Shown here piece after piece: positions 4,296 to 51,373 of a stretch of DNA of 64,000 nt (its first letter is position 1; each line of letters opens with the position of its first letter). This stretch comes from Octopus sinensis. Lineage: Eukaryota. Position numbers and translations under genes: made by a program. The notes under the pieces are model-generated. The model saw only the letters and a list, made by a program, of their open reading frames with translations. It was not told where the DNA came from and did no database searches. The stretch covers positions 10,788,001 through 10,852,000 of the forward strand of contig NC_043017.1 of NCBI RefSeq assembly GCF_006345805.1. The letters are read 5' to 3'.

Positions 4296-4895
4296 GCGGC
4301 GAGCTGGCAGAATCGTTAGCACGCCGGGCGAAATGCTTAGCGGTATTTCGTCTGCCGTTACGTTCTGAGTTCAAATTCCGCCGAGGTCGACTTTGCCGTT
4401 CATCCTTTTGGGGTCGATAAATTAAGTACCAGTTACGCACTGGGGTCGATGTAATCGACTTAATACCTATGTCTGTCCTTGTTTGTCCCCTCTGTGTTTA
4501 GCCCCTTGTGGGTAATAAAGAAATAGGTATTTCGTCTGCCGTTACGTTCTGAGTTCAAATTCCGCTGAGGTCAACTTTGCCTTTCATCCTTTTGGGGTCG
4601 ATAAATTAAGTACCAGTTACAAACTGGGGGTCGATGTAACCGACTTAATCCGTTTGCCTGTCTTTGTTTGTCCCCTCTGTGCTTAGCCCCTTGTATGTAG
4701 TAAAGAAATAGGTATTTCGTCTGCCGTTACGTTCTGAGTTCAAATTCCGCTGAGGTCAACTTTGCCTTTCATCCTTTTGGGGTCGATAAATTAAATACCA
4801 GTTACGAACTAGGAGTCGATGTAACCGACTTAATCCGTTTGCCTGTCCTTGTTTGTCCCCTCTGTGTTTAGCCCCTTGTATGTAGTAAAGAAATA
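4296..4895 (+). mobile_element. SINE family B tandem trimer with 12-bp TSD
   Basis: One head (gcggcgagctggcag) plus three bodies, each starting ggtatttcg. TSD ggtacttataca at 4281-4292 and 4896-4907. Confidence 0.85.
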
Positions 4896-27478: not shown

Positions 27479-28121
27479 TATATATACATAAATACAAACA
27501 CATAAGCGCACACACATTAATACATACAGATGCATAAATACATACACACACACACACGCTTGTGTGTAAGTATGTGTACTTGTTTCTGTGTGTGTGTGTG
27601 TGTACGTGTACTCATTGACCAAGAGTCAAAACTATGTTCCTAATGCAACCAAAATCTTTCTCAAATCTGTTAAGGTTGTCCCAGTCCAGTTTATTTGATG
27701 ACCTTTTCAGCTTTGACCTTTCACATGTCTCTACTTCCTTCCAGCGAACCCCTTCCCCCACCAGCCATCCCACTCTCACCCCAGCATCTTTCCATGTTTG
27801 CAAGGAACCAAAATGATAGAACTAACCTTCTTTCTTGATCTTTCTTTACAAATTTCCCAAATCCTTTTATTTACTCTTTTTCTTTGTTTCTCTCTGTTTT
27901 TGTCTTTGTTCTTTTTTTTTATCTTTTTCTTTCCTGCTTTCTATTTCTTTTGCTCTTTCTACTTTCTCTTTTATTCTTTATCCACTCACCCCCATCTCTC
28001 TCTCTCTCATTTCACTTCCCCTGACACAAAAAAGATTTTCCTGTGCATAAAAAATATATTATGGGCGCAGTAGTTTATAGAATCGGTGGAGCATTGGATA
28101 AAATGCCTTGTGGTCTGCTAC

Positions 28122-28166
28122 TCTAGGCCGATGAAGGACAATGATCCTGAAACACGTGTCCCTAGA
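28122..28166 (+). ncRNA. Type I minimal hammerhead ribozyme (U4C core, palindromic stem III)
   Basis: tctagg-CCGATGA-agga(caatga)tcct-GAA-ac(acgt)gt-C-cctaga. All three stems intact; predicted cleavage after GUC at 28160. Confidence 0.8.
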
Positions 28167-28545
28167 TGCAGCTCCGGCGGCCGGGGGTGTTTGTCTCCCC
28201 TTCGTAAATGTATATAAGGACACAGGGAAAAATGTGTCAAAGCCATCAGGAGGCGTCGATGCTTCCTAGGGCTATACAGCGGTGGTGTACCCCCCTACTG
28301 TCATGCTCGTGTTAGATTGACAGTATACAACCATTCTATCGCCTCACCACCGTACATGTCTCTACAAGAGATTTAGAAATTTAGTATTTCTTATGGTATT
28401 TATTCTGGTTTTTTTATATTCCAAGTTCTGAGGTCAGTTTTACCTTTCATCTTTTCAACACTGATACATTTAAGAACCAATCAAGAACTCTTCCTTCCAA
28501 ATCTGCTGGTCTTGTGCCAAAAGCAGAGAACTACTATTATTATTA

Positions 28546-29323: not shown

Positions 29324-29487
29324 GTCTGGATGATGTTGTTCTACCATATGTCCAGTATTTCTTAAACAGTGGCATTGATGGTAAGAAGTTGTTTATGATG
29401 TCCAATTTTGACCTGGAGAAACTCAACGTCACCAAGATTGGTCACCAAGAACTGATCCTAGAATCTATTGGATTATTGTTAACATTG
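29324..29487 (+). CDS. CNKSR: CNK/CNKSR scaffold protein, internal exon A (SAM domain)
   Basis: Acceptor ttttcag, donor gtaagt. Encodes (G)LDDVVLPYVQYFLNSGIDGKKLFMMSNFDLEKLNVTKIGHQELILESIGLLLTL. GLDD and IGHQELILE are CNK SAM motifs. Starts in phase 1, so an upstream coding exon is required. Confidence 0.95.
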
Positions 29488-32140: not shown

Positions 32141-32370
32141 CGGTATGGATTTGAATCTGAAAACCTGCAGTCTTTGGCGCTTCAGCTGAGCGTGAAGGCT
32201 CGGTGTTTGGTTGCTGTGTTAAACAAACAATTAGCTGAAGAAGCAACAAACAAGAGCCATGTTTCTTCCAACAGACGTGATTCCTCAAAACAAACCATTT
32301 CTGTACCGATTCTCTCTGCAGTCTGTGATATTATCAGTTCTCTGAAACCAATTGTGACCTGGCTTGACCG
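32141..32370 (+). CDS. CNKSR: CNK exon B (CRIC domain N-part)
   Basis: Acceptor tttttgcag, donor gtgagt. Encodes RYGFESENLQSLALQL...SAVCDIISSLKPIVTWLD(R), matching CNK YGLETENL...WLDR. In frame with exon A. Confidence 0.95.
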
Positions 32371-33229
32371 GTGAGTGCCTTTTTTTTTATTAACCTTTGG
32401 CCATTAATTCTTAACCCCTTAGCCTTTTTCCTACCAAACTGCCTCTGGTTCTATTGTTTAAACTTTCTGAAATTTCATAATAATCATATTCCAAACTCCA
32501 ACTTAATAATCACAAAGATATTTTATTTAATTCTTCTTTATTTCCAAAACTAATTGAAACAAAGCCAGTGTCTTTCAACTGAAATATGGTAAAGAGAAAG
32601 TGAAAGTGATCAAAAAACTTGATATCAAAATTTTATGCTAATTTATGTTTTAAATATCAGCTTAATAATGACAGTTACTTTACTAGATTCCTCATTATTC
32701 TCAAAATTAATTGAAAGAAAGATGGTTTATTTCAACAGAAATATCATCACAAAATGGCTAAGTGATTGTTTGAAATACTGGGTAAAATCTTTCTTAAATC
32801 TTTTGTGACCAACCTGTTTGAAACTGGTTCAGTTATAATGACTTTCTGTTTTAAAGTAACCTATATTAAAACTGTCCTTCAAAATTCCATGTTCCTTCAT
32901 GATCCAAACACCAGCTTAATAATGACAATTATTTTACTAAATTCTTCATCTCAACAGAAATATGTTAACAAAGAATTTGATAAAATAACATTGTCATTAT
33001 GAAGTTGGTGTTTGGAATATAAATTAACATGGAATTTTGATGGAATGTTTTAATGTTGATTATTTTAGAAGAGGAAGCTTATATCATAAAACCAGGGGTA
33101 GTCTCAGGCTGGTTGGCATCGGAGGGGTTAATTAATTAGGAGTTAATTAAATGGGATTTTCATTTATTTGGCTGATACTTATTTCATCAAACCAGAGAAG
33201 AGAATTGACTTTGGCAATTTTCATGCTAC

Positions 33230-40648: not shown

Positions 40649-41426
40649 GATGTACTTGTTGCCACTTTTATGACGTGGTTCTTGTGAATTACTTTAGTGT
40701 TGTGCACTAATCATTGTGTGATATACAATACTGCTGAACAGGATAGACGCTAACTGTCTCCACTTGATGTATTCCCAAATACTCTGCCAACAAACGTAAC
40801 AAACCCAAAACAACTCTCAAAAAAACTATCACAACTTCTCAACAATTTCCTGCAACTCCACGAATTCACGAACGACATCTTTCGACTTCCTGTGATTTTT
40901 CATCTCTCTGTCAAGCATGCTGCTACTTATACGAGTATTGGCTAGTCCATTCTCACCATAACACACACATACACATGATAGTTTTTCCACAGAGTTTCCC
41001 TTTACCAAATCCACTGACAAGGCTTTGGTCAGCCCAGGGGTTATAAAAGAAGACATTTGAACAAGGTGCGGTACAGTGGGACTGAACTTTTAACCATACA
41101 GTTGCAAAATGAGCTTTTTTACTACACAACCACGCCAACACTTGTGTCAGCTTATATATGTTTTCTGTTTTCAAATCATGCTTTTGACCTTAGAACGAAA
41201 GCCAGAGGTTATTTGAGAACCAATTTAGCAGTTTCAGAATGTGAATACAGTTATTGAATGATAGAATTTCCTTTGACCTCAACAAGTGGTAGAATTACTT
41301 GTAGAATGTTAATAATACTTTCAATGGTTTTAACACGAGTGTCAGAAACACTAGTGGTTGTGGTGGTGGCGGCAGCAGTTGTACTGGTAGTAGTGTTGGT
41401 GGTGGTGTTGGTAGTGGTGGTCATAG

Positions 41427-41840
41427 GCGGCGAGCTGGCAGAAACGTTAGCACACCGGGCGAAATGCTTAACGGTATTTCGTCTGCCGTAACGTTGTGAG
41501 TTTAAATTCCGCCGAGGTTGACTTTGCCTTTTGTCCTTTCGGGGTCGATAAATTAAGTACCAGTTACGCACTGGGGTCAATGTAATTGATTTAATACCTA
41601 TGTCTGTCCTTGTTTGTCCCCTCTATGTTTAGCCCCTTGTGGGTAATAAAGAAATAGGTATTTCGTCTGCCGTAAGGTTGTGAGTTCAAATTCCGCCGAG
41701 GTCGACTTTGCCTTTCATCCTTTCGGGGTCGATAAATTAAGTACCAGTTACGCACTGGGATCAATGTAATCGACTTAATACCTATGTCTGTCCTTGTTTG
41801 TCCCTTTTGTGTTTAGCCCCTTGTGGGTAATAAAGAAATA
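41427..41840 (+). mobile_element. SINE family B tandem dimer with 17-bp TSD
   Basis: TSD ggtagtggtggtcatag at 41410-41426 and 41841-41857. Second unit starts ggtatttcg. Confidence 0.88.
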
Positions 41841-50404: not shown

Positions 50405-51373
50405 CATGATACACGATCTAAAGATCACATTAGACGTGTCTTACTCTGAGTTTCATAAATGTATCAATGCAAGGACAGCAGCAAAGTCTCTTCAGAAAGT
50501 TTGTGGGGATGATATAGTGAGTGAAAGAAGGTGATGGTGTTCTCACTTCAGAAGTGGGGATCTGAGTTTTAAATACGAGCCAAAAGAAGGTCGTTCAAAA
50601 CAACTTGATTCCGAAGAGTTGGAAGCTGTTGTCACAGAAAACCCAACTGCTACTTGTAGAGAACTTGCAGAACAGTTTAACGTAGCCCATACAACCGTTG
50701 TAGACCAGAATCGGAAAGGTTTCAGTGGTTGGAAAATGGGTCCTGCATGAACTGTCTCCAAAGAATCCTCAACAGCATGTTGTTTGTTGTCAGGCATTGC
50801 TTTCACGAGACTTCAAGGAACCGTTTTTAGGAAGGCTTGTTATAGGTGATGAGAAGTGGATACTTTACCATGACATTAAGTGCCGCCAGTCGTGGATCAG
50901 TCGAGGAGGAAGACCTGTTCAACAACCAAGAGGAGGACTTCATCTAAGGAAGATCATGTTGAGTGTATGGTGGAATATTGAAGGAATTGTTCCATCGTTT
51001 CAAAGCTGCTTTGAACAGAAAGCAACCCTGCTTAGTCAACAGAAAGGGTGTCATCTACCATCATGATAATGCTCATCCTCACACATCTCGACTGACCAAA
51101 GATCTCATGGAAGAGCTTGGTTGGGAAATATTCCTTCATCCTCCTTATTCTCCAGACCTTGCTCCTTCTGATTATCACTTGTTTCAGGGGCTACAGAACC
51201 ATTTGAATGGTCTTTGGTTGACATCAAGAGAGGAGGCTGAAAATAAGTTGGATTCATACTTCGCATCAAAACATAAAAAATTTTACAAACGTGGCATTTA
51301 TAAGCTTGTTGACAGATGGAAGGAAGTTCTAGAAAACAATGGAAATTATGTTAACGAAGAAAAATTGTCTTAA
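50405..51373 (+). pseudogene. Decayed mariner (DD34D) transposase
   Basis: WVLHEL, GDEKW, KIMLSVWW, HHDNAHPH and HPPYSPDLAPSDYHLF motifs across frameshifts. Confidence 0.92.

What the first reader, a model, noticed from the sequence alone, without database searches (positions are those of the whole stretch)
28115..28389. 275-nt structured non-coding insertion headed by an intact variant hammerhead ribozyme
Seen: a type I minimal hammerhead with perfect stem I (tctagg/cctaga), stem II (agga/tcct), a palindromic stem III (acacgtgt) and a GUC site, but core CCGAUGA instead of CUGAUGA. Downstream is GC-richer sequence with several hairpins: gacaca/tgtgtc, near-palindrome aggaggcgtcgatgcttcct, and cggtggtg/caccaccg enclosing tactgtca/tgacagta. 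The unit splits an old SINE and is flanked by a TSD-like pair, cttgtggt (28107-28114) and cttatggt (28390-28397). Known: Penelope-like elements and retrozymes carry minimal hammerheads, and those with palindromic stem III can cleave as dimers. Inference: this is a small non-autonomous ribozyme retroelement, sense to the CNK pre-mRNA and about 1 kb upstream of the SAM exon.
Basis: partly seen in the sequence, partly recalled or inferred. Interest (0 to 1): 0.75.

Follow-up and report, generated by a model that had tools for sequence, protein, structure and literature searches.

The report
Truncated copy of variant-hammerhead retrozyme
This is one recent, shortened copy of a 364-letter jumping repeat present at roughly 870 places in this animal genome; the repeat carries a hammerhead motif, predicted to cut its own RNA, with one unusual core letter, and is likely pasted into DNA by a borrowed Penelope-type enzyme.

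Summary
The hammerhead is real, but the insert is not unique. It is a 5'-truncated copy (28113-28394) of a young 364-nt non-coding unit at an estimated 870 loci. Other copies form tandems and back-to-back arms with two fixed ends 55 nt apart, mostly in (AT)n: the Penelope footprint, so a non-LTR retrozyme. The variant core (U4C) is the family state; canonical-core copies (5) are no commoner than the opposite CpG-decay product (4). Older canonical-core relatives covary in stems I and II. The 8-nt TSD is mostly wrong: CTTAT is the element's own end, and an empty allele in another run shows that only TGGT is duplicated and that the insertion is polymorphic or very recent. Cleavage, circles and transcription are untested; no partner Penelope was found. 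New here: at least 22 family copies carry a 1.7-kb ORF1-like cassette at one fixed site, and one two-armed insertion shows unit plus cassette copied together. The scan has already noted several retrozyme families in this genome, and a CCGAUGA one in another genome.

The parts
28113..28394 (+). 5'-truncated copy of the 364-nt retrozyme unit (unit positions 83-364); GT at the 5' end and T at the 3' end are shared with the target
   Evidence: nearest other copy differs at 4 of 275 sites; 4 private changes (28304, 28306, 28344, 28366)
28122..28166 (+). type I hammerhead motif: stem I 28122-27/28161-66, core CCGAUGA 28128-34, stem II 28135-38/28145-48, GAA, palindromic stem III 28152-59, C17 28160
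   Evidence: RF00163 full-length alignment below gathering score; covariation in relatives
28129..28129 (+). U4C core variant, the family's ancestral state
28115..28171 (+). stem I extension (28115-18 with 28168-71) beyond an internal loop; all that is left of the long rod in this copy
   Evidence: predicted fold
28167..28220 (+). 3' arm of the long predicted stem; its partner (unit positions about 35-82) is missing from this truncated copy
   Evidence: predicted fold of full units
28211..28217 (+). TATA-like box (TATATAA), candidate internal promoter, untested
   Evidence: sequence only
28340..28394 (+). 55-nt 'tail' between the family's two fixed ends (unit position 309 = 28339; position 364 = 28394)
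28111..28114 (+). left copy of the target duplication TGGT
   Evidence: empty allele in run X15
28394..28397 (+). right copy of the target duplication TGGT
28062..28114 (+). host SINE, 5' part (old, diverged copy; left edge approximate)
28395..28480 (+). host SINE, 3' part; begins at the GGTATTT site where this SINE family also inserts into itself (right edge approximate)
29325..29487 (+). SAM-domain exon of the CNK-like host gene
32144..32371 (+). CRIC-domain coding stretch of the CNK-like host gene (exon start not mapped)

Best explanation
The insert is a 5'-truncated, recent copy of a 364-nt non-coding repeat whose every unit carries a type I hammerhead motif with a U4C core, and the family is likely reverse-transcribed and pasted by a Penelope-type RT/GIY-YIG enzyme supplied in trans (a non-LTR retrozyme). 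Shown: copy number, tandem and two-armed architecture, two fixed ends, (AT)n target bias, family-wide C4, an empty allele. Inferred: source loci with two or more units are transcribed (TATA-like box inside the unit); neighbouring hammerheads pair through the palindromic stem III and cut after GUC, probably slowly because of U4C, releasing 364-nt monomers that may circularise; monomers, circles or uncut multimers are then copied from both ends of a nicked target, giving the two arms that differ by the 55-nt tail. The window copy is a one-armed, truncated product with a single hammerhead and no partner nearby, so it is probably inert for CNK pre-mRNA.
For: Copy number: 1,355 exact hits to a 26-mer, 0 in the control; 92 hits on contig C1 fall in 59 clusters, which scales to about 870 loci. 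Period 363-369 nt in tandems, no ORF in the unit seen. Of 56 two-armed clusters among 106 examined, 36 have one outer end at unit position 309 and the other at 364, and none has 309/309 or 364/364. 42 of 55 non-tandem ends at 364 and 33 of 41 ends at 309 run into (AT)n. This matches the partial tandems, inverted 5' copy, one-sided tail and microsatellite bias described for Penelope-like elements (PMC8557442, passages). Six natural cut-to-cut units fold as circles at z -4.5 to -9.8 with the hammerhead at the tip of a long rod, as for retrozyme circRNAs (PMC7229834, passages). Core state: 169 C4 hits (92 of 100 listed are this family), 5 family copies among 78 U4 hits, 4 family copies among 5 G5A hits. 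In 26 older canonical-core relatives with the same stem III, stem I pairing is 0.62 against 0.47 +/- 0.04 permuted (4 of 5000) and stem II 0.76 against 0.58 +/- 0.04 (0 of 5000; 22 sequences). In copies chosen without regard to the hammerhead, shared variants hit 1 of 39 hammerhead columns (the free N7) against 35 of 293 elsewhere, p = 0.055. Intact RT+GIY-YIG ORFs of 775-781 aa with their own hammerheads exist in the genome. U4C is a known natural variant that lowers activity in vitro yet supports viroid infection (PMC3088659, discussion passage).
Against: No cleavage, circle or strand-resolved RNA evidence: only contigs were available, and RNA status of the runs is a guess. No partner found: the unit shows no similarity beyond chance to 30 GIY-YIG loci or 19 longer Penelope regions. 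The tail is 55 nt, longer than the 30-40 bp reported. The constraint test is borderline (p = 0.055; p = 0.22 with the 21 tail-selected loci alone), and the stronger result (0 of 39, p = 0.01) is biased by selection on the hammerhead. The covariation test does not correct for relatedness. Only 1 of 9 Xenopus retrozyme dimers cleaved in vitro (10.64898/2026.07.22.740005), so a motif does not imply activity. This copy is not in (AT)n and has no second arm.
Confidence: 0.8

Rival explanations
1. Same element and same Penelope-type spread, but the U4C hammerhead is dead: the family is a SINE-like passenger copied from uncut read-through RNA, and the motif is a relic.
For: U4C lowers activity in vitro (PMC3088659). 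The window copy and most others read straight through the cut site. Several composite loci hold a plain unit upstream of a cassette-bearing unit, which a single monomer circle cannot template (L221, L225, L227). The closing pair of stem II, mostly U-A in older relatives, is C.A here.
Against: Shared variants avoid the core and stems, falling on N7, loop 2 and the centre of the stem III palindrome. Other hammerhead repeats in this genome also carry C4 in some copies. A religated circle would also read through the site.
Confidence: 0.3
2. This particular copy was inserted at a nick made by the LINE endonuclease that serves the host SINE family, not by the Penelope endonuclease.
For: Its 3' junction lies at the same SINE-head nucleotide (before GGTATTT) at which this SINE inserts into itself; 11 of 15 SINE 3' junctions seen are followed by GGT, 3 of them at that site. 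The copy lacks (AT)n and a second arm.
Against: It is the only such junction in the genome (1 hit). Its duplication is 4 nt, while SINE insertions show 10-21 nt in 4 of 6 cases scored. Other one-armed copies also sit outside (AT)n with little or no duplication.
Confidence: 0.25
3. The unit is the pseudo-LTR of an autonomous Penelope element and the copies are its truncated ends.
For: Most Penelope hammerheads occur as solo truncated ends (PMC4209133). Only about 170 of an estimated 870 loci were inspected.
Against: Upstream of the unit lies another unit, host DNA or the ORF1-like cassette in every locus read; no RT or GIY-YIG ORF adjoined a unit in 40 loci read 4 kb upstream. Unit-to-unit tandems make 62 of 117 ends at position 364.
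Confidence: 0.08
4. The insertion is a regulatory ribozyme co-opted by the CNK gene.
For: It is sense to the gene and 0.9 kb upstream of the SAM exon.
Against: It is absent from another haplotype, 1.5% from other copies, single, truncated, and contains no splice or poly(A) motif.
Confidence: 0.02

Closest known systems
Metazoan non-LTR retrozymes (Cervera and de la Pena 2020, PMC7229834; Li, Clavereau and Pollet, 10.64898/2026.07.22.740005)
   Same: Non-coding 150-450 bp units (350-390 bp in mussel), under 50% GC (44-46% here), one type I hammerhead per unit, monomers to multimers, highly self-paired predicted circle, co-occurring with autonomous Penelope elements.
   Different: Family-wide U4C core; arrays seen are short (1-3 full units) and two-armed; some copies carry 1.7-5 kb of ORF1-like cargo; cleavage and circRNA not shown; no sequence-related Penelope pLTR found.
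Penelope-like element pseudo-LTRs with hammerheads (PMC4209133; PMC8557442)
   Same: Palindromic helix III suited to dimers, partial tandems, inverted 5'-truncated copy, one-sided tail, (TA)n bias.
   Different: No RT or endonuclease ORF; tail 55 nt rather than 30-40; stem I is a full 6 bp with a long predicted extension rather than the short helix I of minimal hammerheads.
Type I hammerhead, Rfam RF00163, and the natural U4C viroid variant cited in PMC3088659
   Same: All other core positions, topology and GUC site; U4C has been seen in nature.
   Different: Scores below the family threshold (14.3 against 34 bits); here U4C is fixed in a family that went on amplifying, not a population variant.
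Tx1-clade target-specific LINEs that insert into other transposons (Tx1 in Tx1D, Tx1-Mar; PMC4494074, passages) and ORF1-only 'half-LINE' elements (HAL1; name recalled, search listing only)
   Same: Applies to the cassette in other family copies: single ORF with a CCHC knuckle, fixed insertion site in another repeat, 9-17 nt duplication, tandem stacking.
   Different: The target is a ribozyme retroelement that then copies the cassette along; the Tx1 assignment was not tested here (no ORF2 partner examined).

Membership tests
Type I hammerhead ribozyme | Three helices round the core in type I order, cut site after NUH | tested here: met
   covariation in older relatives
Type I hammerhead ribozyme | Core consensus CUGANGA / GAAA | tested here: not met
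   U4C in the window and in the family; a known tolerated variant (PMC3088659)
Type I hammerhead ribozyme | Rfam RF00163 gathering score | tested here: not met
   14.3 bits against 34; canonical-core copy 17.4
Type I hammerhead ribozyme | Site-specific self-cleavage | not testable with these tools
   needs in vitro transcription or raw RNA reads
Non-LTR retrozyme | Short non-coding repeat unit with one type I hammerhead per unit, in tandem and dispersed copies | tested here: met
   363-369 nt units, dimers and trimers
Non-LTR retrozyme | Highly self-paired predicted monomer circle | tested here: met
   z -4.5 to -9.8 in 6 of 6 units, 40 shuffles each; prediction only
Non-LTR retrozyme | Expressed as circular RNA | not testable with these tools
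   only contigs of runs guessed to be RNA
Non-LTR retrozyme | Large TSDs when present | tested here: not met
   4 nt here; mostly (AT)n targets where a TSD cannot be read
Penelope-mobilised element | Partial tandems, inverted 5' arm, one-sided tail, microsatellite bias | tested here: met
   36 of 56 two-armed clusters with 309/364 ends
Penelope-mobilised element | Terminal similarity to an autonomous partner | tested here: inconclusive
   none among five GIY-YIG families sampled; sampling covered 49 of 5,029 first-look candidates
Autonomous Penelope-like element | RT plus GIY-YIG ORF between pseudo-LTRs | tested here: not met
   the only long ORF next to units is the ORF1-like cassette
ORF1-only non-LTR element (cassette in other copies) | LINE ORF1-type protein (RRM plus CCHC), no RT | tested here: inconclusive
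   zf-CCHC just under cut-off; Atlas neighbours of the homologue include ZCCHC3-like and DUF4283 clusters at 0.88-0.91; model pLDDT 43, no significant fold match; no RT hit

The most novel reading that the evidence does not exclude
A three-tier parasite stack: the family fixed a slowed U4C hammerhead, so long read-through RNAs survive, and a target-specific ORF1-only element that lands at one site of the unit is carried along, making 2-6 kb retrozyme-flanked protein-coding elements that a Penelope enzyme copies whole; the ORF1-like protein may in turn chaperone the retrozyme RNA.
Probability: 0.25. Interest if true: 0.75.

Novelty: new variant of a known kind. Interest (0 to 1): 0.45.

Why it matters
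The window copy is ordinary. The family is useful in two ways. First, it is a natural test of how much hammerhead activity a retrozyme needs: a core change that lowers cleavage was fixed while the family spread to hundreds of loci, and canonical-core copies arose by CpG decay, so matched C4 and U4 dimers exist in the genome. Second, its composite copies show a retrozyme carrying a protein-coding passenger, which argues that templates longer than one small circle are copied; that bears on the open question of how retrozymes are mobilised. Descriptor searches that require CUGANGA would miss the family.

Tried and rejected
Rfam at 2.6 kb scale: no hammerhead hit. DNA search with the left SINE flank returned only the window, and a local-alignment score test of the left flank was weak (3 of 23 above the 99th percentile of controls); the SINE split rests on the read-through contigs and the visible register. 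Partner search: PF26215 is not in the library; GIY-YIG loci gave five families with no similarity to the unit. I first took a C4 hammerhead near L105/L119/L130 for the autonomous element's own; it is a separate repeat, and that Penelope family has a U3-A8 core. Expression: no RNA holder listed on record; contigs cannot show ends, strand or circles. The pair counts (86.9% paired, 0 of 500 shuffles) used 11 hand-picked relatives that had passed a pairing filter, so one search is the fair test. Circle against linear multimer: private variants are shared in 9 of 47 direct and 10 of 77 inverted within-locus pairs, which does not decide it. Structure prediction of the cassette protein was too poor to use; PDB sequence search gave only knuckle-level hits. 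Literature searches for an octopus or cephalopod retrozyme and for retrozyme-ORF1 composites found no description in the listings; Repbase and Dfam could not be searched, and the supplements of PMC4209133 and PMC7229834, which may list cephalopod hammerheads, were not read.

Full report
Observation. Stem I extends past an internal loop (28115-18 with 28168-71). Stem III can form only 3 pairs round a 2-nt loop in a monomer but an 8-bp duplex (-10.3 kcal/mol) between two copies, the dimer arrangement described in PMC4209133 (parts 1-2 of 4 read). Rfam does not call it at threshold: 14.3 bits against 34, and a canonical-core copy reaches only 17.4. The host gene is CNK-like (SAM; CRIC), on the same strand; its first exon is not in the window.

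It is a repeat. The 275 nt matched 93 places at 89-100% among the 40 of 2,123 candidates that were scored. An exact 26-mer occurs 1,355 times, control 0; clustering on contig C1 (92 hits, 59 clusters) scales to about 870 loci. Tandem copies give a unit of 363-369 nt. The window holds unit positions 83-364, that is 28113-28394, and differs from its nearest relative at 4 of 275 sites. Contigs of runs labelled as four organisms hold the unit. The only protein homologue of a family-associated ORF is from an octopus, and earlier notes of the scan call this an octopus genome.

Insertion footprint. Copies end at two fixed points, unit positions 364 and 309, 55 nt apart. Of 117 ends at 364, 62 continue into the next unit, 42 into (AT)n and 13 elsewhere; of 41 ends at 309, 33 run into (AT)n. 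Among 106 clusters, 56 are two-armed; 36 of these have one end of each kind and none has two of the same kind. These loci were chosen by several different searches, not at random. Partial tandems, an inverted 5'-truncated arm, a one-sided tail and (TA)n bias are the Penelope signature (PMC8557442, passages), and a recent preprint argues that animal retrozymes are non-autonomous Penelope derivatives (10.64898/2026.07.22.740005, parts 1-3 of 5 read). The genome has intact RT+GIY-YIG ORFs with their own hammerheads, but none of 49 regions sampled resembles this unit. The partner is therefore inferred, not found.

The TSD. CTTAT at 28390-94 is the family's 3' end. A 360-nt contig from run X15 (depth 22; 76% of the run read) covers 27921-28114 and continues with the sequence from 28398, without the element. 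Only TGGT is duplicated. The likeness of target CTTGT to element CTTAT may reflect microhomology at priming or chance. The empty allele differs from the window at 5 of 307 aligned flank positions, so the insertion is polymorphic or very recent. Three runs also hold other SINE copies that bridge the two flanks, confirming the split SINE.

The U4C core. 97 of the 100 listed exact hits have C4, as do 21 of 22 copies chosen without regard to the hammerhead. With stem III fixed, the genome has 169 C4 hits (92 of 100 listed belong to the family), 78 U4 hits (5 family, 73 older and diverse) and 5 G5A hits (4 family). C4-G5 is a CpG, and 5 against 4 is what symmetric deamination gives, so canonical copies are decay products and C4 was in the active source. 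The older U4 relatives share the 14-nt stem II span and stem III, and their stems covary: 0.62 against 0.47 for stem I (26 sequences, 4 of 5000 permutations) and 0.76 against 0.58 for stem II (22 sequences, 0 of 5000) (relatedness not corrected). Within the family, shared variants fall on N7, loop 2 and a one-base insertion at the centre of the palindrome; the fair test gives 1 of 39 against 35 of 293 columns, p = 0.055. U4C is reported to lower activity in vitro yet allow viroid infection (PMC3088659, section 8 and passages; the primary paper was not read). My odds that dimers cleave at a useful rate are about 0.6.

Fold. The truncated 275 nt fold little better than shuffles (z -1.7). Six natural cut-to-cut units folded as circles give z -4.5 to -9.8, with the hammerhead at the tip of a long rod, like the self-paired circRNAs of coral, mussel and axolotl retrozymes (PMC7229834, passages). 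The window copy lacks the rod's 5' arm and has no second hammerhead of the family beside it, so it should cut CNK pre-mRNA rarely if at all (inference). No RNA evidence could be had: all runs were contigs and their RNA status was guessed.

Cargo in other copies. At least 22 loci have a 1.7-kb cassette joined to unit position 63 (control 0). It encodes one protein of about 450 aa with a CCHC knuckle and no RT, has many relatives in the genome (94 scored matches), stacks in arrays of up to four, and is bounded by a 9-17 nt repeat of the target. More distant relatives sit at a fixed site in a different repeat and share a 3' tail with the host SINE family. It behaves like a target-specific ORF1-only element; the Tx1 label is a lead from the Atlas and from earlier notes, not a test. 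At L217 both arms of a two-armed, (AT)n-flanked insertion contain cassette plus unit and are 99.4% identical over 1,244 nt, while that cassette is at most 91% like any other of the 34 compared, so the composite was most likely copied as one template. Two-cassette arrays keep the same order at different loci (L216/L031; L224/L044). Against a simple picture: some loci hold a plain unit ahead of a composite one, which fits either multi-unit templates or later cassette insertion, and 0 of 21 tail-selected loci showed a cassette within 1.5 kb. The window copy starts downstream of the cassette site, so its own template cannot be typed.

An unexplained coincidence. The 3' junction of the window copy lies at the SINE-head nucleotide where that SINE inserts into itself; 11 of 15 SINE 3' junctions seen are followed by GGT. 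It is the only such junction of the family, and its 4-nt duplication is shorter than the 10-21 nt of SINE insertions. I give a one-off LINE-nick insertion 0.25.

Verdict. A real hammerhead motif in a truncated copy of a young, Penelope-type non-LTR retrozyme family (0.8). What sets the family apart is the fixed U4C core and the ORF1-like cargo. Searches of the held literature found no description of either, with repeat databases and supplements unseen. Interest 0.45.

Noticed in passing
L070:2704-4386, L217, L213-L228; 22 junctions genome-wide: 1.7-kb ORF1-like (CCHC) cassette inserted at one site of the retrozyme unit, stacked up to four times, and copied together with the unit in two-armed insertions.
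   Followed up: partly
L089, L093, L097, L098, L100: A more distant subfamily of the same cassette sits at a fixed site in a different, unidentified repeat of over 1 kb.
   Followed up: no
window 4300-4800, 41424-41840; also 16354, 30259, 50281: The common SINE shares its 3' tail with the cassette family, ends before GGT in 11 of 15 cases and forms tandems by inserting into its own head at the site also hit by the window's retrozyme copy.
   Followed up: partly
L161:1174-4874, L162-L165, L167: Young autonomous Penelope family with an extra upstream ORF (about 480 aa, frameshifted in some copies), a 781-aa RT+GIY-YIG ORF and a U3-A8 hammerhead core about 60 nt from its 3' end; targets (AT)n.
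   Followed up: partly
L132-L160 (73 of 78 hits): Older, diverse canonical-core hammerheads with the same palindromic stem III and covarying stems: the likely ancestral lineage.
   Followed up: partly
L038, L105, L119, L130; window 437 region and L134: Two further hammerhead repeats (stem III of 9 nt and of 4 nt) with both C4 and U4 copies, so C4 recurs in unrelated families of this genome.
   Followed up: no
unit positions 1-40 (absent from the window copy; L058:4322-4362): A UUGAUAA motif followed by a strong hairpin resembles a relic of a second, U3-A8-type hammerhead; speculative.
   Followed up: no
L214:3101-4628 (= L036:2560-3954): One cassette copy has many A-to-G changes relative to its neighbours and a deviant base composition, which could be RNA editing written back into DNA.
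   Followed up: no
window about 50535-51370: Broken reading frames with transposase-like motifs (mariner-type by recall).
   Followed up: no
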